Made by a program: the position numbers and the translations under genes | Shown: piece after piece, positions 2,994 through 50,516 of the stretch | Layout of the letters: each line of letters begins with the position of its first letter | How positions within the stretch are numbered: position 1 is the stretch's first letter | Origin: Minisyncoccota bacterium | GTDB lineage: Bacteria > Patescibacteriota > Minisyncoccia > Moranbacterales > UBA1568 | DNA: 64,000 bases | Assembly (NCBI GenBank): GCA_051306005.1 | Contig: JBPPMJ010000006.1 | Span: 8,361 to 72,360 of the forward strand | Direction: 5' to 3' | The notes under the pieces: generated by a model | Databases searched by the model: none | The model's input: only the letters and a program-made list of their open reading frames with translations | Told to the model about the DNA's origin: nothing

Positions 2994-3590
2994 TTGATAT
3001 ATAAGGAGAGGGTCATGTCTATCTTGTCTGCTACTCCCGGTACTTCACAGCAAGCTACCCGGAAGAAAAGGGATCCAGGATTGGTTTGGCCGAAAAAAGG
3101 CTGTTTGCTGAAAGCGGTAGATGCTATTCAGCTCCCAAAGAGCTCCCTCTTACAGGATCCACTCAATGCTTTGCATGAGATGCCGGATCTGGTTATCGGA
3201 GACGCTGTGTACGAGTTGGCAGATTTGTCAACGTACGCAGAAAAACGTTCTTTATCATTTTGCATTCGCGCTCACCTCATGTGCTTTGCGAGAGATTCAA
3301 CTATCTGTCAACTATTGCCCAAAAATTATATCATGCCATTTACACATTTATTGGCACTGATTAAAGCGCAACACTCTGAGACGGAACATCCTTTCCTTCC
3401 CATTGATGCCAAAAAAAGCAGTTTTTATGTTATGGGAAAAGGGCGATTCTCGAGAGTCGTCATTAGTCTCCAAAAAAATAGAAAACTTCATTATTGGGAG
3501 ATGGATGCTTGGGAGATGGACCATAGCGCATGGGAACCGGGTACGCAAATTGTTTTTTGCGCCAGCCATCAAGGCATCATGAACAACTGA
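2994..3590 (+). CDS. hypothetical protein
   Basis: 198-aa ORF with no recognisable motif. Start may be the internal Met at 3015. Downstream hairpin/T-run at 3697-3737. Confidence 0.35.
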   Translation: MIYKERVMSILSATPGTSQQATRKKRDPGLVWPKKGCLLKAVDAIQLPKSSLLQDPLNALHEMPDLVIGDAVYELADLSTYAEKRSLSFCIRAHLMCFARDSTICQLLPKNYIMPFTHLLALIKAQHSETEHPFLPIDAKKSSFYVMGKGRFSRVVISLQKNRKLHYWEMDAWEMDHSAWEPGTQIVFCASHQGIMNN

Positions 3591-3735
3591 TACACCATTG
3601 ATTGTTACTACAATGTAGTTTTTCTCATTAAGGTGTTTTGCAAAAACGTGTCCTTTTTATTGTGGAGAACCATCCGTGTCTATACTTAAACCCTTCCCCT
3701 GATTACTCTTCGTAGTTATCAGGGGTTTCTCTTTT

Positions 3736-4200
3736 TTACTCAACAATTAATGCGCCAAATTGTCCTTTGGCACGATGTCCTGGCTTGGAACAATAGTAGA
3801 CAAATTCACCCTTCTTATCAGCGGTAAATTCAATGATGGTGTCTTGGTTCAAGGGGAGCTCTTGGTAAATACTATATTCATCAAGGGTAAAATCATGCAT
3901 CCCTTTGGTATTGGTAATTGTGATGCGGACGGTATCTCCTTGTTTCACACGGATTTCTTTGAGGGAATACCAAACACCTGTTTCATCATAATATGCCGTC
4001 ATGGCAAATTCTTGTGGCTTGTTAATTTGCATCATGGCAGGCGCTGGTACCTGATTGATCTGTTTCTTGGTACCAGGCCAAAATATGTATGCGCCGATAA
4101 CAACAATAATAAAGACCACGATGCTAATAAATTTTTTCATAAAAGGTTGATTACATATAAGAAGCGTCTTCATTATATAAGCTTTCTGTTTTTTTGACAA
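3736..4200 (-). CDS. cupredoxin-like (plastocyanin/azurin-type) blue-copper domain protein, membrane anchored
   Basis: Signal anchor MKKFISIVVFIIVVIGAYIFW. C-terminal YYCSKPGHRAKGQFGALIVE with upstream GMHDF gives a H...C..H..Q ligand pattern (Gln in the axial Met position, as in stellacyanins). Alternative starts at 4173 or 4140. Confidence 0.5.
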   Translation of the reverse strand: MSKKQKAYIMKTLLICNQPFMKKFISIVVFIIVVIGAYIFWPGTKKQINQVPAPAMMQINKPQEFAMTAYYDETGVWYSLKEIRVKQGDTVRITITNTKGMHDFTLDEYSIYQELPLNQDTIIEFTADKKGEFVYYCSKPGHRAKGQFGALIVE

Positions 4201-7766: not shown

Positions 7767-8180
7767 GCGATAGACATGGTGATTTCTGAGAAAAGATTGC
7801 AAAGAAAGACGCGGTGACAGCTATCTTTCTTGTCGTGATTGCGAAAAAAGAAAGTAATGGGGGCAAGCACGTACCACGCAGTGCAGACGGGAAGATTGTT
7901 ATAATGATTGGGAATACAGAGGAAAGCGCTACTGATTTGGTTGATGGACGTATTGATACCTTCTGTATACGTATCAATTGGATATATCTGAAAAAAAGAG
8001 GATTGCGTGAAAATGTGGACAAAGTTGTGCGAATCATGATTCACAAAGTGTCCAAAAATAGATTAGTGGTGTTAGTGTGTATACTGAAAAATACACATTA
8101 AGATTTAGGTCAAAACCACCACTGCGACGTGCGGAGCGTGCGACACCATTTGGCTTTGAAAAAGCCGTTAAGTTCCATTC

Positions 8181-8266
8181 TGGTGCCGTGGAAAGGACTT
8201 GAACCTTCACAGGGTTTCCCCTACCAGCTCCTAAGGCTGGCGTGTCTACCATTCCACCACCACGGC
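8181..8266 (-). tRNA. tRNA-Leu(TAG), class II, CCA encoded
   Basis: Minus-strand read GCCGTGG...CCACGGC-A-CCA. Anticodon loop CTTAGGA. Long variable arm. T-arm GAAGG-TTCAAGT-CCTTT. Confidence 0.85.
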
Positions 8267-8610: not shown

Positions 8611-10113
8611 TTATTCTACCCAGTGACGTTTTTTGATTTGTTGATTGTCTTCGTTTTTTCGTTTCTCAATTTTTTCTTCTGCTTGAGCTTGGAGTATAGT
8701 GAGGTTACTTTCGTTCAAAACAATGGATCGTTTGAGGAGTATATCACGTGTGTTGCGTGTCGGATCCTCAATGACTTCTGCCAATAAGACGTTTAAGATG
8801 GCGCCAATTTTTGGTCCGGCAGGAATATGGAGCATCTGGAGTAAATCAGTTCCCTTGATAGCGAGCATTTTGACGGAGAGTGGATCATGAGATACTTTTT
8901 CAATCATGTATTCCAAATGGCGGAGTTTGTAGGGCTTCGCTTTTGGTACGCCCGATCCCAACCGATCACCGATACGTACCGCCATGAGATCATCCATATT
9001 TTCTAAACCAACACGCTTGATAAGGCGTCTGACTGAGGCTTCAGTCACTTCGCCAACATTGTAATAGAAGAGATGATTGTCAACAAGGAGCACCGTCTTT
9101 TGGATGATAGTTTTTGGATAATGAAGACGGGTCAACATCTTTTCAGCCATACGCGCGCCGACGTGGTCATGATTGTAAAATGTGGCATGAAGTCCTTCGC
9201 CACGTTTCGTTCGTGGCTTACCAACATCGTGTAGGAGACTAGCGAGACGCACTTCTAGTTTTGACGAAGGGCAGGTTGCAAGTGCCCGTAGATTATGTTC
9301 CCAGACCGTATAGATATGATGCAGATTTTGCGTCACCCCAATTCCTTCTTCCAATTCCGGTAACACAAAGGGTAGCAGATGTGTTTCCTGTAAGAGAGCT
9401 ATGCCTTCATTTGGACTGTCAGACAAGATAATTTTGGAAAGTTCATCACGGATTCTTTCTTGGGAAACAACTTTGAGATTGTGGGCAAGTTTTTTGATTG
9501 CTTGTAGTGTTGCTGGCTCAATAGACCATTGCGATGCAGTTTTTTGCGAGTGGCGTAATTCAGCAAAAAATCGAACAGCTCGCATCAAACGCAAAGCATC
9601 TTCACCAAAACGTTCTTCGGGAGTGCCAACGGCGCGAATCAGTTTATCTGTGATGTCTTGTTGTCCACTAAAGAGATCTATCAACTTCCATGAACCTGGC
9701 TTTTTGGCACCATAAGCAAGGGCATTTATGGTAAAGTCTCGGCGCGCCAGATCTTCTTCAAGGGAGAGTGTAAAGGAAATGTGGTCTGGTCGACGTAAGT
9801 CCGTGTACTCACTTTCTGTGCGATATGTGGTGACTTCAATGATATCGTATTCATGTGAAACGGGGGTCGTCGCCAGAAAGCGCGCTACTTTGACACCGAC
9901 AGTTCCAAAGATATTTTCATAAAAACTATCTGGAAAAAGCGCCATAATTTGTTCTGGAATGGCATTGGTCGTTATATCCCAGTCTTTTGGGGTGCGTTCG
10001 ATAATGAGATCACGCACACATCCACCTACCAAAAATGCCTCAAAACCAGCCTGAATAAGTGTGTTTACAACATGTTGTACCGGCAATGGAATAAGAGAGG
10101 TCATAGGTAACAA
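8611..10113 (-). CDS. cca: CCA-adding tRNA nucleotidyltransferase (polyA polymerase head plus HD domain)
   Basis: GGCVRD nucleotidyltransferase motif, RRDFTINA, and HD motif LLHDVGK. Confidence 0.85.
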   Translation of the reverse strand: MLPMTSLIPLPVQHVVNTLIQAGFEAFLVGGCVRDLIIERTPKDWDITTNAIPEQIMALFPDSFYENIFGTVGVKVARFLATTPVSHEYDIIEVTTYRTESEYTDLRRPDHISFTLSLEEDLARRDFTINALAYGAKKPGSWKLIDLFSGQQDITDKLIRAVGTPEERFGEDALRLMRAVRFFAELRHSQKTASQWSIEPATLQAIKKLAHNLKVVSQERIRDELSKIILSDSPNEGIALLQETHLLPFVLPELEEGIGVTQNLHHIYTVWEHNLRALATCPSSKLEVRLASLLHDVGKPRTKRGEGLHATFYNHDHVGARMAEKMLTRLHYPKTIIQKTVLLVDNHLFYYNVGEVTEASVRRLIKRVGLENMDDLMAVRIGDRLGSGVPKAKPYKLRHLEYMIEKVSHDPLSVKMLAIKGTDLLQMLHIPAGPKIGAILNVLLAEVIEDPTRNTRDILLKRSIVLNESNLTILQAQAEEKIEKRKNEDNQQIKKRHWVE

Positions 10114-12002: not shown

Positions 12003-12521
12003 TTATACGAGGGCAGTTTTTCCAGAAATGGCTTCAACAATAGTAGCTTGTTCTTCATCTGTCAGGGGAAAGTTGCCAGCTTTACCCGCAATAACTGGCT
12101 TGGCATAGACGCGGGTGCCTTCACGTGTATGAAGGGAGGAAATAACGACGCCAGAATTCTTGCCATCCAAAAGTGCTACACAAAAACTTTGATTCCCACC
12201 GACATCTTTGAATGGATTGAAGCGCAACAAACTAGTCTTGTGAATGCTTTTCATCCCAATATCACGCAATCGGTTAGAGATTTCGAAAAGTTCCTGTATT
12301 TCTTGATCCAATGCTTTTGTGTCTTGGAGTTGGGTCAGGAGAACCTGTTCTAAATCTTGAGCCTTTTTGCCAGAGAAAAATACCGCTAGCTTTTGCTGAA
12401 AACTCTGGTTTTTCCGCCACAAAACAAAGGCGATACCCAATAGGATGATTTCCCCAAATACGAGAACGGCGAGACCTCCGTAGATGAGAGTGGGAGAAAA
12501 AGTGTAGAGAAAATCAAACAT
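12003..12521 (-). CDS. DUF4446-like membrane protein
   Basis: N-terminal TM followed by a coiled region. Architecture matches the DUF4446 proteins common in CPR and Firmicutes. Confidence 0.45.
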   Translation of the reverse strand: MFDFLYTFSPTLIYGGLAVLVFGEIILLGIAFVLWRKNQSFQQKLAVFFSGKKAQDLEQVLLTQLQDTKALDQEIQELFEISNRLRDIGMKSIHKTSLLRFNPFKDVGGNQSFCVALLDGKNSGVVISSLHTREGTRVYAKPVIAGKAGNFPLTDEEQATIVEAISGKTALV

Positions 12522-12925: not shown

Positions 12926-13099
12926 ATGCCAAAGATCAGAGTGAAAAAAGGTATATCGCAGGGAGATGTTGCTCGAGACTTGGAAGTAAGTCGCTTGTTT
13001 ATTGGTACGATAGAAAATGGAAAAACTAATCCAACGCTCGCGACAATTGCAAAATTAGCGAAAGCAGTTGAGGTTCCGGTTGATGAACTTTTGGAATAG
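12926..13099 (+). CDS. XRE-family helix-turn-helix protein (57 aa, absent from the supplied ORF track)
   Basis: MPKIRVKKGISQGDVARDLEVSRLFIGTIENGKTNPTLATIAKLAKAVEVPVDELLE, a Cro/C1-type HTH. Preceded by an A/T-rich promoter-like region. Confidence 0.6.
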   Translation: MPKIRVKKGISQGDVARDLEVSRLFIGTIENGKTNPTLATIAKLAKAVEVPVDELLE

Positions 13100-14111: not shown

Positions 14112-14322
14112 AAATATGGAAAATAATAACCCAACAGAGAAGCTGGAAGAAATCCAAAAGCGCCTTGAGGCATTAGAAGAAAGCTTAAGCGAGGAAGAAA
14201 AAGTCATAGCTCTCACAGAACTAAACACACTCATTTCAGAAATTAATGAAAGTGTCGAAGATCATCTCGACAAAATGAAGATCATTGAATTACAACAGAA
14301 ACTCAGGTCATCTGAGCAATAG
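14104..14322 (+). CDS. small coiled-coil protein
   Basis: About 72 aa, E/L-rich heptads. Overlaps the upstream stop by 8 nt. Terminator at 14352-14374. Confidence 0.4.
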   Translation: MLKNMENNNPTEKLEEIQKRLEALEESLSEEEKVIALTELNTLISEINESVEDHLDKMKIIELQQKLRSSEQ

Positions 14323-14351
14323 AGTTCACAACGACTTTGAGACTTGATAAT

Positions 14352-14374
14352 AAAAAGCGGCAATGCCGCTTTTT
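14352..14374. terminator. bidirectional intrinsic terminator
   Basis: aaaaGCGGCAaTGCCGCttttt palindrome with A-run and T-run on either side. Confidence 0.6.
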
Positions 14375-14394
14375 ATGCAACTACGTATATCTTG

Positions 14395-14797
14395 TCGGAA
14401 GCAAAGACTGTGCGTGCATGGAAGGGGGTGGGGCAAACACGTACAGGTTTGTCTGCGTCTTAGCACAATCCACTTGAGTGAGTTGCCATAAAACTCTCTC
14501 CAAGTCACCGAACGAATACGCGTAAGCGCCGAAGCAACCGGCGCGATCCGCGCCAACTGGCGGAGAGCGAGCTGTGTGAAGGCGGTTGCGTGTATTTCGC
14601 GGTCGGTTGATTTATTGCATTCTTGGCTCTCAGGCAAAACTTGAGAACGACAACCGAGAAGTGAAGGTGAAGCGAGGACTCCGGACGCGATGTGAGATGG
14701 GGATGTGGCCGACATGCACTCCGACCGGATATCTCAATGTCACATCGCCGAATGGCAGAGGACAAATCATCGTCGATTCAGATCGCGGACTACCCCC
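14395..14797 (-). ncRNA. GC-rich structured RNA, candidate tmRNA (ssrA)-like; 3' boundary unresolved
   Basis: Minus strand starts GGGGGTAGTCCGCGATCTGAATCGACGATGATTTG, which resembles the tmRNA 5' TLD (E. coli GGGGCTGATTCTGGATTCGACGGGATTTG). Possible P2 pairing TTTGTC/GACAAA with the 3' region. GC well above the flanks. No canonical T-arm or tag frame found. Confidence 0.35.
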
Positions 14798-14838
14798 TAG
14801 ACAAATTGTTTCGTCCTGCCGATTCTGATTTCCAATTT

Positions 14839-14928
14839 TGGCGGAAAGGGAGGGATTCGAACCCTCGATACTGTTTCCAGTATGCCGCTTTTCGAGAGCG
14901 GTGCCTTCGACCACTCGGCCACCTTTCC
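14839..14928 (-). tRNA. tRNA-Ser(CGA), class II, CCA encoded
   Basis: GGAAAGG...CCTTTCC-G-CCA. Anticodon loop CTCGAAA. Long variable arm ACTG/CAGT. T-arm GAGGG-TTCGAAT-CCCTC. Confidence 0.85.
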
Positions 14929-15052
14929 ATACTCATCGTTGTACAGGAAAACGACGAGAGAATCAAGATGTATCCTATGTTGCATATCTTTTCTTTTTGT
15001 AATATTTGTGGTATACTGAATTTAATAGTTGAAATAAAAAATTTTTTATTTA

Positions 15053-43194: not shown

Positions 43195-43268
43195 GTGGGT
43201 GTAGTACAATGGTAGTACACGACCTTCCCAAGGTTGAGACGAGGGTTCGATTCCCTTCACCCGCTCCA
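43195..43268 (+). tRNA. tRNA-Gly(CCC), CCA encoded
   Basis: GTGGGTG...CACCCGC-T-CCA. Anticodon loop TTCCCAA. T-arm GAGGG-TTCGATT-CCCTT. Confidence 0.8.
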
Positions 43269-43276
43269 TAATGTGT

Positions 43277-43502
43277 CTATACCGTACCGCTCGAACCTAT
43301 TTTGTCCGCAACGGCTGAATGAAACCATACTAAGGAAGTCAGCTCCGCCACTGCGACCCGCCCAAGCGGGATCGCCACCTCCCAGAAAAACTGCCTTTGC
43401 ATTCCGGATTTTGCGCGCGCCCGATTTTTTCTTTCAAAAAGGAAAAGTCAGTTTTTCTGGGCTGTTCTGCTCTTTGGTGCAGAGCGGCGGGGCTGTTTGC
43501 TG
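43277..43502. repeat. left copy of ~226-bp GC-rich imperfect inverted repeat with internal nested stems
   Basis: About 88% identical to the reverse complement of 50271-50497. Internal stems cccagaaaaactg/cagtttttctggg and cagcYccgcc/ggcggggctg. Confidence 0.75.
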
Positions 43503-43566
43503 TTTTTTACCTTACCACAATATCTAAACTTTAGATATTTGCTTTCTGTATATATGCTGATACTAT

Positions 43567-43788
43567 ATGGACAAGACAATACGAACAAAAGAATACGCTC
43601 GATTTATTGAGAAACTGCGTAAGGCACGGCTTGAGGCAGGATTGAGGCAAATTGATGTTGCCAAGAAAATCAAGCGCCCACAATCTTATATTTCCCGCGT
43701 GGAATCTGGGGAATATCGGTTGGATATTTTGGAAGTCAAGCGGTTCGCCAAGATTTACGGAAAGAGCGTGGATTATTTCGTGAAGTAA
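43567..43788 (+). CDS. XRE-family HTH transcriptional regulator
   Basis: ARFIEKLRKARLEAGLRQIDVAKKIKRPQSYISRVESGE is a Cro/C1 HTH. First gene of the island. Confidence 0.7.
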   Translation: MDKTIRTKEYARFIEKLRKARLEAGLRQIDVAKKIKRPQSYISRVESGEYRLDILEVKRFAKIYGKSVDYFVK

Positions 43789-44486: not shown

Positions 44487-44762
44487 ACAAAAAAATGGTC
44501 AGACTGTTAATTTCTTAGTGAAAAAAGTATGAATATCGTGAAGAAAAAAAGAACATTGATTTGCGATGAAGCTGAGAAAAAGTGGCAGCAAGCGGGACCA
44601 AAGACTAGGATAGTCAGGTTTTTTTGGAATGGGGTTGCATTCAAATCTACCCTTACTCTTTGCAGGGTGCTTGTTGAAAGCGTAGATGGGAGAATAAAGG
44701 TTTGTCGATATCATCGCTGATAAGGTTTTTATTATCTTCTTTGGGTCTAATACCTCGTGGCT

Positions 44763-44805
44763 TGCGAAGATTTACGGAAAGAGCGTGGATTATTTTGTGA
44801 AGTGA
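44763..44805 (+). repeat. 43-bp direct repeat duplicating the 3' end of the XRE gene (43746-43788)
   Basis: 40/43 identical (tgcgaagatttacggaaagagcgtggattattttgtgaagtga). Not part of an intact ORF. Confidence 0.65.
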
Positions 44806-46925: not shown

Positions 46926-47453
46926 ATGGGTCAGGTAAAATATCAAATCCAGTCCGATTTCATGGTGTTATGTGTATATATGGATGAATCAGATCAAATT
47001 AAAGAAGTTTATGCCAGGTTTGGTTTGGCAGTATATTCCGCCCAAGTACTTGAACTCCAAATGATTAATATGATTGTTGCATTAACATTGCCGGAAAGGT
47101 TTCAGATTAAACGAGATACCATTGACAATCTTTTTGATAAGCTTTTTGAAAAAACAATGGGAGGGTTAATGCAAGATTTCAAAAAAAGATTTGAATTAAC
47201 TGAAAAAGAAAATTTGTTATTAGATAAAAGTTTAGAGCAGAGAAACAGATTAGCTCATAGATATTTTCGAGAAAAGGCTGTGGATTTCATGAGTTTTGAA
47301 GGTAGATTAAAAATGATAGATGAGCTTATCATAATCAATGCTCACTTTGAAGAGTTGGATAAGATATTGACATACAGACACAGAGAATATACCAAAAAAT
47401 TTGGAGTTACTGAGGATGTCATAGAAGAAGAAATTAAAAAATTGTTATTATGA
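46926..47453 (+). CDS. hypothetical protein with HEPN-like Rx4H motif
   Basis: LEQRNRLAHRYF (R106-x4-H111) in an alpha-helical, K/E-rich 175-aa protein. Confidence 0.4.
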   Translation: MGQVKYQIQSDFMVLCVYMDESDQIKEVYARFGLAVYSAQVLELQMINMIVALTLPERFQIKRDTIDNLFDKLFEKTMGGLMQDFKKRFELTEKENLLLDKSLEQRNRLAHRYFREKAVDFMSFEGRLKMIDELIIINAHFEELDKILTYRHREYTKKFGVTEDVIEEEIKKLLL

Positions 47454-49117: not shown

Positions 49118-50005
49118 ATGTCATTAATGGAACAAGAAACTCTCACAATAAAATTTGATGGCCAGAACCATCAGGTGGATGTTCAGACTTTTGTGTACTC
49201 CGTGCTCAATTTTACGACGGTCGTAAAGGAAGCGAATAAGAGAAACGGAGGGAACCCGATAAATATAAATATTAAGGCACCTGAAAAAGGGAGTCTTCTT
49301 GTCGATCTTGTAACGAACGCTGTCAATAACCCGACCCTGCTGAATGGCACGACTATTTTAGCGAGTACGATAGTTATCGTTGGCGGAGTTTATCAACTTC
49401 ACAAATTTATAAGTGGGAGAAAGACTAAAGAAGTAAAGACTGAAAATAGTGAAACTACTATTACGCTTGAAGACGGCTCAATTCTTACTATTGCGGAGAA
49501 TATTTACAATATCTACACGACAACTCCGGCTATACCGGATAGTATTTCTAAAAACTTTTCCGCTTTAAGCGAGGATCCAGCGGTAACAAACTTTGAAGTT
49601 TCTAGGAATGGAACAGAAAAAATTATTGAAGTATCAAAAGAGGATTATGCAAGAATGGCTATTAAGCAGCAGATCGAGACAGAAAATTCAAGAACTATTG
49701 TTGAGTCTGCAAACCTCTACATTTACAAGGTAGTTTTCGAAAAAACCGATCGAAAGTGGGAATTCTATCATAACGGTGATAAAATTTCTGCCAATATCTT
49801 TGATGAAGATTTCTTCAAGCTGATTGATAGAGGAGAGTCTTTTTCAAAGGGGGATCAACTAAAAGCTGATCTTCAAGTCACCCAGATTTTTGATGAATCC
49901 ATTGGTACCTATGTGAATCAATCCCATGCTGTTTTGAAAGTCTACGAGCATATTAAACGGTCAGAACCGATGGAATTGCCTTTTAATAAAACTATTGAGG
50001 ATTAA
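49118..50005 (+). CDS. hypothetical protein
   Basis: 295-aa ORF. Last gene of the island. Followed by hairpin cccgcga-ttcctttct-tcgcggg. Confidence 0.45.
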   Translation: MSLMEQETLTIKFDGQNHQVDVQTFVYSVLNFTTVVKEANKRNGGNPININIKAPEKGSLLVDLVTNAVNNPTLLNGTTILASTIVIVGGVYQLHKFISGRKTKEVKTENSETTITLEDGSILTIAENIYNIYTTTPAIPDSISKNFSALSEDPAVTNFEVSRNGTEKIIEVSKEDYARMAIKQQIETENSRTIVESANLYIYKVVFEKTDRKWEFYHNGDKISANIFDEDFFKLIDRGESFSKGDQLKADLQVTQIFDESIGTYVNQSHAVLKVYEHIKRSEPMELPFNKTIED

Positions 50006-50270
50006 GGGAGTCCCGCCCGCGATTCCTTTCTTCGCGGGCTGGGATGTGTGCGCACGGGTGGGTGGGGCAAGCACAACAAGATTTGCTTGTGCTTTAGCAC
50101 AAACCACTTGAAAGGAGTTACCACTAACCATACCGAAACGGTGAGCAACAGAGCTACTGCCAAACGTGGATATTGCGCCGACGCGAGGATGAAGAAATGA
50201 GTGAACAAAATATTGCCTGATGTGGTAAAATAATCATAAGCTCATTCTTTCAGCCTTCGCGACGGACTCA

Positions 50271-50497
50271 AAAGCAGACAGCCCCGCCGCTCTGCACCAA
50301 AGTGCAGAACATCCCAGAAAAACTGACTTTTCCTTTTTGAAAGAAAAAATCGGGCGTGCGCAAAATCCGAAATGCGAAGATAGTTTTTCTAGGATGGAGC
50401 GATCCCGCTTTAGCGGGTCGCAGCGGCGGGGCTGGCTCCCTTAGTATGGTTTCATTCAGCCGTTGCGGAGAAAATAGGTTTGAGCGGTACGGTAAAG
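50271..50497. repeat. right copy of ~226-bp inverted repeat (reverse complement of 43277-43502)
   Basis: See left copy. Internal stems conserved, with wobble-compatible substitutions. Confidence 0.75.
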
Positions 50498-50516
50498 TCA
50501 CTCATTAAACTCTCTT

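What the first reader, a model, noticed from the sequence alone, without database searches (positions are those of the whole stretch)
50050..50150. About 100 nt just inside the right inverted repeat is homologous to the 3' portion of the 14.4-kb structured RNA locus
50050-50150 (ggggcaagcacaacaagatttgcttgtgctttagcacaaaccacttgaaaggagttacca...) aligns at roughly 75% identity with 14425-14520 (ggggcaaacacgtacaggtttgtctgcgtcttagcacaatccacttgagtgagttgcca...). This includes a conserved hairpin with compensatory stem changes (caaacac/gtttgtc versus aagcacaa/ttgtgctt) and the block TTAGCACAAnCCACTTGA. If the 14.4-kb locus is an ssrA-like gene, a duplicated fragment of its 3' end at an island boundary is the classic footprint of elements that integrate into small-RNA genes. 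Here the fragment lies 35 kb from the intact locus, so a rearrangement or a second related att remnant would have to be invoked.
Basis: seen in the sequence. Interest (0 to 1): 0.55.

Follow-up and report, generated by a model that had tools for sequence, protein, structure and literature searches.

The report
Conserved end-piece of invertible island cassettes
The 100-base similarity is real, but it is not a leftover of a small-RNA gene: it is a conserved non-coding piece near one end of gene cassettes that insert next to tRNA genes in tiny 'CPR' bacteria (one relative is assembled in both orientations), and the supposed RNA gene at 14.4 kb is the wreck of one such element.

Summary
The similarity is real: 14409-14488 matches 50045-50123 at 73% over 81 nt (E 2e-8), and it is the only significant match between the two regions.

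The interpretation does not hold.
- The 14.4-kb locus is not ssrA-like. ARAGORN and Rfam find nothing there.
- It is absent from the same site in related Moranbacteria.
- It contains a fragment of a large serine recombinase (LSR) pseudogene at 14598-14804 (profile E 1e-5).

Both copies lie inside strain-specific islands that start within 15 nt of a tRNA 3' end.

Homologous copies occur in two other CPR cassette families (L070; L092-L098). These share one layout: long structured inverted repeat, XRE regulator, cargo, PDC-S42-like gene, hairpin, the block, an outward promoter, inverted repeat. An LSR gene sits next to them. One family is assembled in both orientations, so it probably inverts.

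The first 32 nt of the block are 94% identical where synonymous sites are only 51-67% identical, so this part is under selection.

Best reading: a cis-acting sequence element of the cassette's right-end module. Its exact function is unresolved.

The parts
50045..50140 (+). Block, copy B. Block I is 50045-50076 (TGTGTGCGCACGGGTGGGTGGGGCAAGCACAA). Block II is 50094-50123 (TTAGCACAAACCACTTGAAAGGAGTTACCA). ACCGAA is at 50132-50137.
   Evidence: Block I is 30/32 identical to L070 and to L093.
14409..14516 (+). Block, copy A. Diverged block I is 14409-14440. Block II is 14460-14488. ACCGAA is at 14507-14512.
50013..50041 (.). GC-rich hairpin right after the stop codon of the last cargo gene, 1-4 nt before block I. 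The sequence is not conserved among homologues; the presence is.
   Evidence: hairpin identity 39-61% between homologues
14350..14378 (.). Bidirectional intrinsic-terminator hairpin after the last gene of island A, about 30 nt before the block.
   Evidence: sequence read directly
50141..50269 (+). 'Mid' segment between the block and the right inverted repeat. It holds an outward-reading sigma70-like promoter at 50202-50231 (TGAACA-18-TAAAAT with TG at -15). The promoter is kept in L070 (CAGACA/TAGGAT) and in L093 (TGGACG-17-TATGAT).
50270..50508 (-). Right arm (Y-R) of the long structured inverted repeat. It ends 8 nt from the stop codon of the LTD/PKD gene.
43269..43504 (+). Left arm (Y-L) of the inverted repeat. 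It begins directly after tRNA-Gly(ccc).
43195..43268 (+). tRNA-Gly(ccc). Island B starts within 6 nt of its 3' end.
43567..43788 (+). XRE-family HTH gene, the first gene of cassette B. It is 96% identical to the first gene of the L070 cassette.
49118..50005 (+). Last cargo gene, 295 aa. It matches PADLOC candidate defence family PDC-S42 (1e-32) and phrog_3243 (9e-44).
14598..14804 (+). Large-serine-recombinase pseudogene fragment. It matches LSR residues about 120-190 (..KRGLRTRCEMGMWPTCTPTGYLN..) and points toward the 3' end of tRNA-Ser.
   Evidence: tblastn E 1e-4, 4e-4, 1e-3 and 0.12 with four LSRs. A profile HMM of those LSRs gives its best hit among the window's 1492 six-frame peptides here, E 1.3e-5. 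Pfam finds no domain on this 80-aa ORF even at E<=1.
14839..14928 (-). tRNA-Ser(cga). Island A ends 15 nt from its 3' end.
12926..13099 (+). XRE-family HTH gene, the first gene of island A. It is 61% identical to the HTH next to LSR1 in L070 and 50% identical to the HTH of the L093 cassette.

Best explanation
The block is a conserved non-coding sequence element. It marks the inner edge of the 'right-end module' of a family of mobile cassettes in CPR bacteria (Moranbacteria and relatives).

The cassette layout is: long structured inverted repeat (Y), XRE regulator, variable cargo, PDC-S42-like gene, hairpin, block, outward promoter, Y inverted. In other genomes a large serine recombinase (LSR) gene and a tRNA gene lie next to the cassette. 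One such cassette is assembled in both orientations, so the segment probably inverts between its repeats.

Island B (43.27-50.51 kb) is such a cassette without its own recombinase. The 14.4-kb locus is the wreck of a related LSR element at tRNA-Ser. What survives there is the block and about 70 codons of the recombinase. The segment that lies between block and recombinase in the intact relatives is not detectable there (no repeat-like sequence), most simply because of an internal deletion.

Shown: homology, island context, selection on block I, absence of coding, and absence of a supported RNA fold.

Inferred: block I acts in cis through its primary sequence. Most likely it is recognised by a conserved protein or by host machinery at the junction between the cargo operon's 3' end and the outward-promoter/repeat module. 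There it would delimit and insulate the module that reads out toward the recombinase gene when the cassette is flipped. The two copies in this window are paralogous parts of two related elements, not a target-site duplication.
For: Homologues and shared layout:
- L070 has block, mid and both Y arms in the same order, next to an LSR gene and tRNA-Ser(tga).
- L092-L098 have block I after the homologous gene, 190-nt inverted repeats and an LSR fragment beside them.
- The distance from the block to the right repeat is about 225-240 nt in all three.

Selection on block I:
- Block I is 30/32 identical for X50-L070 and for X50-L093.
- Third codon positions of the adjacent gene are only 67% and 51% identical.
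- The hairpin is 43-61% identical and mid 46-63%.

Not coding: stops and non-triplet indels in all frames.

Both islands are strain-specific insertions at tRNA 3' ends.

LSR relic in the 14.4-kb locus.

The island A regulator is related to the regulators of L070 and L093.

Both orientations in assemblies: flank F is on the block side in L093 and L095 but on the regulator side in L094. Flank G (LSR) is on the regulator side in L092 but on the block side in L094.

The outward promoter is kept in three diverged cassettes.
Against: - Only four independent block variants exist, so the conservation statistics are thin.
- The function is untested and the acting strand is unknown.
- Island B has no recombinase gene in the 64-kb window, and its repeat arms are only 90% alike.
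- Island A has no detectable repeat. Apart from the recombinase fragment, the rest of its non-coding stretch matches nothing.
- PDC-S42 homologues in other contexts (L073-76, L077-79, phage L080-85) lack the block, so it is not needed by that gene.
- Inversion is inferred from contigs of different metagenome assemblies, not from reads. Assemblers can mis-join across inverted repeats.
- Block II is much more alike between the two copies of this genome (25/30 with one gap) than between X50 and L070 or L093 (15/30). The model does not explain this.
- The recombinase-fragment assignment rests on marginal tblastn and profile scores, and Pfam finds no domain on that ORF.
Confidence: 0.6

Rival explanations
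1. First reader's model. The 14.4-kb locus is an ssrA-like RNA gene, and the 50-kb copy is the duplicated 3' end left by an element that integrated into it or into a paralogue. A later rearrangement separated the two.
For: The similarity is real. Both copies are in islands next to RNA (tRNA) genes.
Against: - No tmRNA or other RNA family at 14.25-14.95 kb, even at E<=10.
- The locus is absent from the syntenic site in L060, L062 and L063, which keep tRNA-Ser and both flanks.
- It contains a recombinase pseudogene fragment.
- The block is not at either island junction and does not overlap a tRNA.
- The block occurs in other genomes at the same internal cassette position.
Confidence: 0.03
2. The block is part of an RNA that matters as RNA. 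One option is the 3'-UTR of the cargo operon. The other is the 3' end of a minus-strand transcript that reads in from the flanking gene or tRNA and stops at the hairpin. In the second case the C-rich complement (GCCCCACCCACCC) would act as a pairing seed or a Rho-loading site.
For: - Fixed position and orientation just after the cargo operon's hairpin in all four variants.
- In all three cases where the flank beyond the block end is known (LTD gene for X50, 189-aa gene for L093, tRNA-Ser for X14), it is transcribed toward the block on the minus strand.
- The two copies in this genome could pair with each other's antisense at about -40 to -45 kcal/mol. This would fit the genome-specific similarity of block II.
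Against: - No conserved secondary structure or covariation.
- No promoter next to the block.
- The hairpins lack U-tracts in three of the four variants.
- There is no expression data.
Confidence: 0.22
3. Block I is a recombinase half-site (pseudo-att). It marks where the right-end module is joined to different cargo, so it is a recombination junction rather than a regulatory site.
For: - Homology between cassettes with different last genes starts exactly at TGTG of block I.
- Homology of PDC-S42 genes in other contexts stops at the stop codon.
- The outer ends of the inverted repeats also begin TG(T/C)G.
- The conserved length (about 30 nt on one side only) is what a hybrid serine-recombinase site would show (established knowledge of attL/attR anatomy).
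Against: - Beyond the first 4-6 nt, block I does not resemble the repeat termini (read).
- Block I is far more conserved (94%) than the recombinases (49% between the L070 and L092 LSRs), which is unusual for a cognate site.
- No inverted partner copy exists in any cassette.
Confidence: 0.12
4. A short dispersed repeat (MITE/REP-like), or a chance similarity, with no link to the islands.
For: Only two copies are visible in the window. The rest of the genome could not be searched.
Against: - E 2e-8 for the pair.
- No terminal inverted repeats or target duplications.
- Exact-motif scans of viral, genome and metagenome collections gave only chance, CIRCE-promoter or human-repeat hits.
- All true homologues are at the same position of homologous cassettes.
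Confidence: 0.03

Closest known systems
Invertible DNA segments controlled by serine recombinases (Hin/hix, Gin/gix, Pin; with a recombinational enhancer inside the segment). From established knowledge. A recent example of a defence-linked serine invertase is PinQ, PMC12529663, abstract only.
   Same: A segment bounded by inverted repeats with a serine-family recombinase gene beside it. It is found in both orientations. An asymmetrically placed conserved element lies inside the segment. A promoter inside the segment reads outward.
   Different: The recombinase here is a large serine recombinase with Recombinase and Zn-ribbon domains, not a ~190-aa invertase. The repeats are 190-240 nt and highly structured, not ~26-bp crossover sites. 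Nothing shows that the block is an enhancer. The cargo is 3-7 kb of regulator plus a candidate defence gene.
tRNA-targeting cargo islands with site-specific integrases, e.g. tycheposons of Prochlorococcus (bioRxiv 10.1101/2020.12.28.424599).
   Same: Cargo-carrying elements at tRNA 3' ends that build variable islands. A minority use large serine recombinases (27 of 937 elements). Decayed copies and rearrangements cluster at the same tRNAs.
   Different: Tycheposons are defined by a lineage-specific tyrosine integrase and replication hallmark genes, neither of which is seen here. They are not described with long structured inverted repeats or invertible cassettes.
Integrase-made duplication of the 3' end of a tRNA or tmRNA gene (the classic att footprint; established knowledge).
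   Same: A short repeat associated with island ends next to RNA genes.
   Different: The repeat here is not part of any RNA gene, is not at the junction, and is an internal component of the element conserved across genomes.
CIRCE operator (TTAGCACTC-N9-GAGTGCTAA).
   Same: Shares the half-site TTAGCAC. Several database hits to the 18-mer were CIRCE-like sites overlapping TTGACA promoters (L008, L014; L054).
   Different: There is no inverted partner half-site at the right spacing in either copy (read). The TTAGCAC motif is not kept in L070 or L093.

Membership tests
tmRNA (ssrA) | tRNA-like acceptor and T-arm domain plus tag reading frame, detectable by ARAGORN or Rfam | tested here: not met
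   ARAGORN finds only five tRNAs in the window. The Rfam scan of 14250-14950 at E<=10 gives no tmRNA.
tmRNA (ssrA) or any housekeeping RNA gene | Conserved at the syntenic locus in related genomes | tested here: not met
   L060, L062 and L063 keep tRNA-Ser(cga), the methyltransferase and the SBP gene, but have unrelated DNA in place of 12.5-14.8 kb.
att duplication by integration into an RNA gene | The repeat equals the 3' end of the intact target gene and sits exactly at the distal island junction | tested here: not met
   The block does not overlap tRNA-Ser or tRNA-Gly. The copies are 323-430 nt (island A) and 368-463 nt (island B) inside the island ends.
LSR-linked inverted-repeat cassette (family defined here from L070 and L092-L098) | Long structured inverted repeats flanking the cassette | tested here: met
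   Island B: 232 nt, 90%, homologous to the L070 arms. Island A: no repeat found.
LSR-linked inverted-repeat cassette | Large serine recombinase gene adjacent to the cassette | tested here: inconclusive
   Island A: pseudogene fragment at 14598-14804, with no Pfam domain detected. Island B: none in the window. L070 and L092: intact or partial LSR next to the repeat.
LSR-linked inverted-repeat cassette | Order: XRE regulator, cargo, hairpin, block, outward promoter, right repeat | tested here: met
   Island B matches L070 and L093 throughout. Island A keeps regulator, cargo, terminator and block only.
LSR-linked inverted-repeat cassette | Segment present in both orientations | not testable with these tools
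   Seen for L092-L095. For island B, reads of SRR22508361/62 would be needed. The Logan contig L017 simply breaks inside the repeats.
Hin/Gin-type invertase switch | Small serine invertase, ~26-bp crossover sites, Fis-bound enhancer | tested here: not met
   The recombinases carry Recombinase and Zn_ribbon_recom domains and are 536-563 aa. The repeats are 190-240 nt. Enhancer function was not tested.
MITE/REP dispersed repeat | Many copies, terminal inverted repeats, target-site duplication | tested here: not met
   Two copies in 64 kb. No extra copies in any other fetched locus. No terminal repeats or duplications. The rest of the genome was not searched.
Any Rfam family | Covariance-model match | tested here: not met
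   No match at either locus or in L070, L093 or L094, apart from tRNAs.

The most novel reading that the evidence does not exclude
The cassettes are phase-variable defence switches of CPR bacteria, driven by a large serine recombinase. Flipping between the ~200-nt structured repeats would place either the regulator end or the block/outward-promoter end next to the recombinase gene. Block I would be the conserved accessory (enhancer-like or insulator) site that makes the switch work. That would be an accessory-site-dependent inversion system for a large serine recombinase, which is not described to my knowledge. The genome-specific similarity of block II would then reflect cross-talk (shared factor or antisense pairing) between an active cassette and a relic in the same cell.
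Probability: 0.12. Interest if true: 0.7.

Novelty: new variant of a known kind. Interest (0 to 1): 0.45.

Why it matters
CPR/Patescibacteria are thought to have few mobile elements and small, static genomes. This window shows two, possibly three, tRNA-adjacent relics or cassettes of one recombinase-linked family. The family carries a candidate anti-phage gene and is shared between Moran-, Shapiro- and Nomurabacteria and a CPR phage. One relative is assembled in both orientations.

A 32-nt non-coding motif kept at 94% while synonymous sites are saturated is a concrete handle. It can be used to find these cassettes in metagenomes. It can also be used to test how a large serine recombinase might run an inversion switch.

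For the scan itself, the lesson is that a GC-rich 'structured' intergenic stretch next to a tRNA can be a decayed element rather than an RNA gene.

Tried and rejected
- tmRNA, RNase P, other RNA gene: rejected by ARAGORN and Rfam at gathering and E<=10 thresholds.
- Exact 18-mer scans of viral, GTDB genome and metagenome collections. They returned only chance hits, CIRCE/promoter sites and a primate repeat in contaminant contigs.
- Gapped and block I patterns in viral contigs: chance hits or none.
- Phage GenBank blastn: no match.
- Small ORF or toxin peptide in block/mid: rejected, no frame is conserved.
- Homology of the two genes upstream of the blocks: none.
- Covariance model of the repeat Y searched in the 14.4-kb locus: nothing.
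- Inverted repeat for island A: none.
- Similarity of 14517-14838 to mid/Y of the other cassettes: not detectable, but the test is insensitive, since even X50 vs L093 fails it.
- Pfam on the recombinase fragment: no domain hit, too short. The assignment rests on tblastn and a custom profile only.
- Trans-pairing partner for block II elsewhere in the window: only the two copies themselves.
- Considered by eye and dropped because not consistent across the four variants: G-quadruplex, dif/Xer site, boxA, tRNA-half, CRISPR-repeat and group II intron 5' end (GUGYG).

Full report
**Observation**

The two segments are homologous and lie on the same strand.
- MAFFT aligns them.
- The repeat finder reports 14426-14477 vs 50060-50111 at 77%.
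- A sensitive blastn between 12.4-14.95 kb and 43.15-50.6 kb gives one significant match only: 14409-14488 vs 50045-50123, 73% over 81 nt, E 2e-8.
- TTAGCACAAnCCACTTGA occurs exactly twice in the window.
- The 50-kb copy lies 130-225 nt inside the right arm of a 232-nt, 90% inverted repeat. Its arms are 43273-43504 and 50270-50501, and the left arm starts directly after tRNA-Gly(ccc).

**What the 14.4-kb locus is not**

- ARAGORN finds five tRNAs and no tmRNA.
- Rfam finds nothing at either locus, even at E<=10.
- Folding of 14400-14838 is no better than shuffles on either strand.

**The organism**

It is a Moranbacteria (CPR) MAG. The window's own DUF4012 and SBP proteins are NCBI entries on a 178,651-nt contig.

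**Synteny**

- In a relative with an 82% identical DUF4012 protein (L056), tRNA-Gly(ccc) is followed by a terminator and one unrelated gene before the LTD/PKD gene. There is no repeat, no island and no block. Nucleotide homology with the window stops 6 nt after the tRNA.
- Three relatives (L060, L062, L063) keep tRNA-Ser(cga), the methyltransferase and the SBP gene. Each has different DNA downstream of the tRNA 3' end. Homology with the window stops in the DUF4446 gene at 12386 and resumes at 14824.
- So both copies of the block lie in strain-specific islands that begin within 15 nt of a tRNA 3' end: island A about 12.5-14.82 kb, island B 43.27-50.51 kb.
- Island B is low in G+C (0.32-0.37). 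All its called genes are on the plus strand. They start with an XRE regulator and end with a 295-aa protein.

**Homologues elsewhere**

The 295-aa protein has 65 homologues at 97-31% identity. They occur in Moran-, Shapiro- and Nomurabacteria and in a roughly 38-kb CPR phage (L080-85: SU10 adaptor, CHAP, Rad52). The protein matches PADLOC candidate family PDC-S42 (1e-32) and phrog_3243.

Two of the fetched contexts carry the block.

1. L070 (NCBI CAYUIR010000022.1). The order is: tRNA-Ser(tga), large serine recombinase gene (minus strand), Y arm, XRE regulator (96% identical to the window's), cargo, 292-aa homologue, hairpin, block, mid, Y arm inverted.
2. L092-L098. The order is: XRE regulator, two genes, 301-aa homologue, hairpin, block I, mid, with 190-nt inverted repeats at 99-100% identity. 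These repeats are a diverged Y. The flank of L092 encodes the N-terminal 343 aa of a large serine recombinase.

The distance from the block to the inner edge of the right repeat is about 225-240 nt in all three cassettes. Other homologues of the gene (L073-76, L077-79, L080-85) lack block and Y, and their similarity to the window stops at the stop codon. The block therefore belongs to the right-end module, not to the gene.

**Selection**

| Segment | X50 vs L070 | X50 vs L093 |
|---|---|---|
| Block I (TGTGYGCGCACGGGTGGGYGGGGCAARCAC) | 30/32 | 30/32 |
| Third codon positions of the adjacent gene | 67% | 51% |
| Hairpin | 61% | 43% |
| Mid | 63% | 46% |

- Block I is therefore under purifying selection as primary sequence.
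- No reading frame is conserved, and the indels are 1, 2 and 10 nt.
- Neither of the two possible hairpins is supported by the four variants: 59% and 64% of cells paired, and 285/500 and 168/500 shuffles do as well.
- Folding z-scores of the block are about 0 on both strands.
It is 25/30 identical with one gap, against 15/30 for X50 vs L070 or L093. Block I shows the opposite pattern. I cannot explain this mosaic.

**The relic at 14.4 kb**

- tblastn with four recombinases hits 14598-14804 on the plus strand..KRGLRTRCEMGMWPTCTPTGYLN.. against LSR residues about 120-190, with E 1e-4, 4e-4, 1e-3 and 0.12.
- A profile of the four recombinases, run against all 1492 six-frame peptides of the window, ranks this peptide first at E 1.3e-5.
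- Pfam finds no domain on this 80-aa ORF even at E<=1, so the assignment rests on tblastn and the custom profile.
- The fragment points toward the 3' end of tRNA-Ser. The intact recombinase genes of L070 point toward tRNA-Arg and tRNA-Ser in the same way.
- The island A regulator is 61% and 50% identical to the regulators of L070 and L093.
- The 'structured RNA locus' is thus: block, about 80 nt, about 70 codons of a recombinase, tRNA-Ser. This is what an internal deletion would leave of an element whose block end faced the recombinase.
- No intact recombinase is in the window.

**Inversion**

- L093 1-3577 is colinear with L094 576-4153.
- L093's right repeat plus flank F (3387-4068) is the reverse complement of L094 1-682.
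- L092's flank G plus left repeat (1159-1399) is the reverse complement of L094 3962-4202.
- So F and G (the recombinase side) swap ends between assemblies of different samples, as expected if the cassette flips between its repeats.
- L096 shows a third flank.
- This is an inference from contigs, not from reads.

A sigma70-like promoter with an extended -10 lies in 'mid' and reads outward through the right repeat. It is kept in three diverged cassettes:
- window: TGAACA-18-TAAAAT;
- L070: CAGACA/TAGGAT;
- L093: TGGACG-17-TATGAT.

In the L094 orientation this promoter points at the recombinase gene.

**Verdict**

The similarity reflects two paralogous pieces of one family of recombinase-linked cassettes that insert next to tRNAs and probably invert. 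It is not a duplicated 3' end of a small-RNA gene.

What block I does is not shown. I favour a cis-acting site read through its sequence, at the boundary between the cargo operon and the outward-promoter/repeat module. The rivals are an RNA-level role and a recombinase half-site.

The kind of system (serine-recombinase islands and invertible segments) is known. The combination of a large serine recombinase, 200-nt structured repeats, a candidate defence cargo and a conserved 32-nt motif in CPR bacteria appears to be a new variant.

Noticed in passing
window 43269-43504 and 50270-50508; L070 5893-6118 and 10136-10375; L093 1-107 and 3387-3577: The long inverted-repeat arms (Y) are themselves highly structured: a closing stem, two side hairpins and a long central hairpin. 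By eye, the stems differ between the window and L070 in ways that keep pairing, but RNAalifold on three sequences scored only 2 of 58 pairs as compensatory, with a positive (unfavourable) covariation term, and the MAFFT alignment is poor around the first hairpin. The arms are 99-100% alike in L070 and L093 but only 90% alike in the window. They match no Rfam family.
   Followed up: partly
L092 1159-1399, L093 3387-4068, L094 1-682 and 3962-4202, L095, L096 1-175: The same cassette is assembled in both orientations relative to its two flanks in different metagenomes. In L096 it has a third flank. The recombinase gene is on flank G.
   Followed up: yes
window 7877-8209 (+), next to tRNA-Leu(tag) 8181-8266 (-): A second possible recombinase relic. 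It resembles the C-terminus of the L070 LSR1 (..LALKKPLSSILV..): tblastn E 1e-4 with an internal stop, profile E 0.019. It overlaps the 3' end of tRNA-Leu, just as LSR1 overlaps tRNA-Arg in L070. Part of the match may simply be tRNA-to-tRNA similarity.
   Followed up: partly
window 43742-43786 and 44759-44803: The last 45 nt of the XRE regulator gene are duplicated (91%) 1 kb downstream, after two inserted genes. This looks like a scar of cargo exchange at the 3' end of the regulator gene.
   Followed up: no
window 50202-50231; L070 ~10040-10070; L093 ~3295-3325: An outward-reading promoter with an extended -10 is conserved in function-like form (-35/-10 hexamers and spacing) despite sequence divergence.
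   Followed up: partly
window 46926-47453: A 175-aa cargo protein with an R-x4-H motif (..EQRNRLAHRYF..) reminiscent of HEPN nucleases. It matches phrog_12893 (5e-11) only. The HEPN assignment is from memory and was not tested.
   Followed up: no
L024, L028, L031, L035, L045, L053 (metagenome contigs): A primate interspersed repeat in contaminant contigs shares 25 consecutive bases with copy A (TTAGCACAATCCACTTGAGTGAGTT). I judged this a coincidence: the contigs carry CA microsatellites and mammalian repeat sequence.
   Followed up: partly
L080-L085: An 83% identical homologue of the 295-aa PDC-S42-like protein sits inside a roughly 38-kb CPR phage genome (SU10 adaptor, CHAP, Rad52). The candidate defence gene therefore also travels on phages.
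   Followed up: no
window 14460-14488 vs 50094-50123: Block II is far more alike between the two copies in this genome than between either copy and its homologues elsewhere. Block I shows the reverse. This could be gene conversion, or a shared genome-specific partner.
   Followed up: partly
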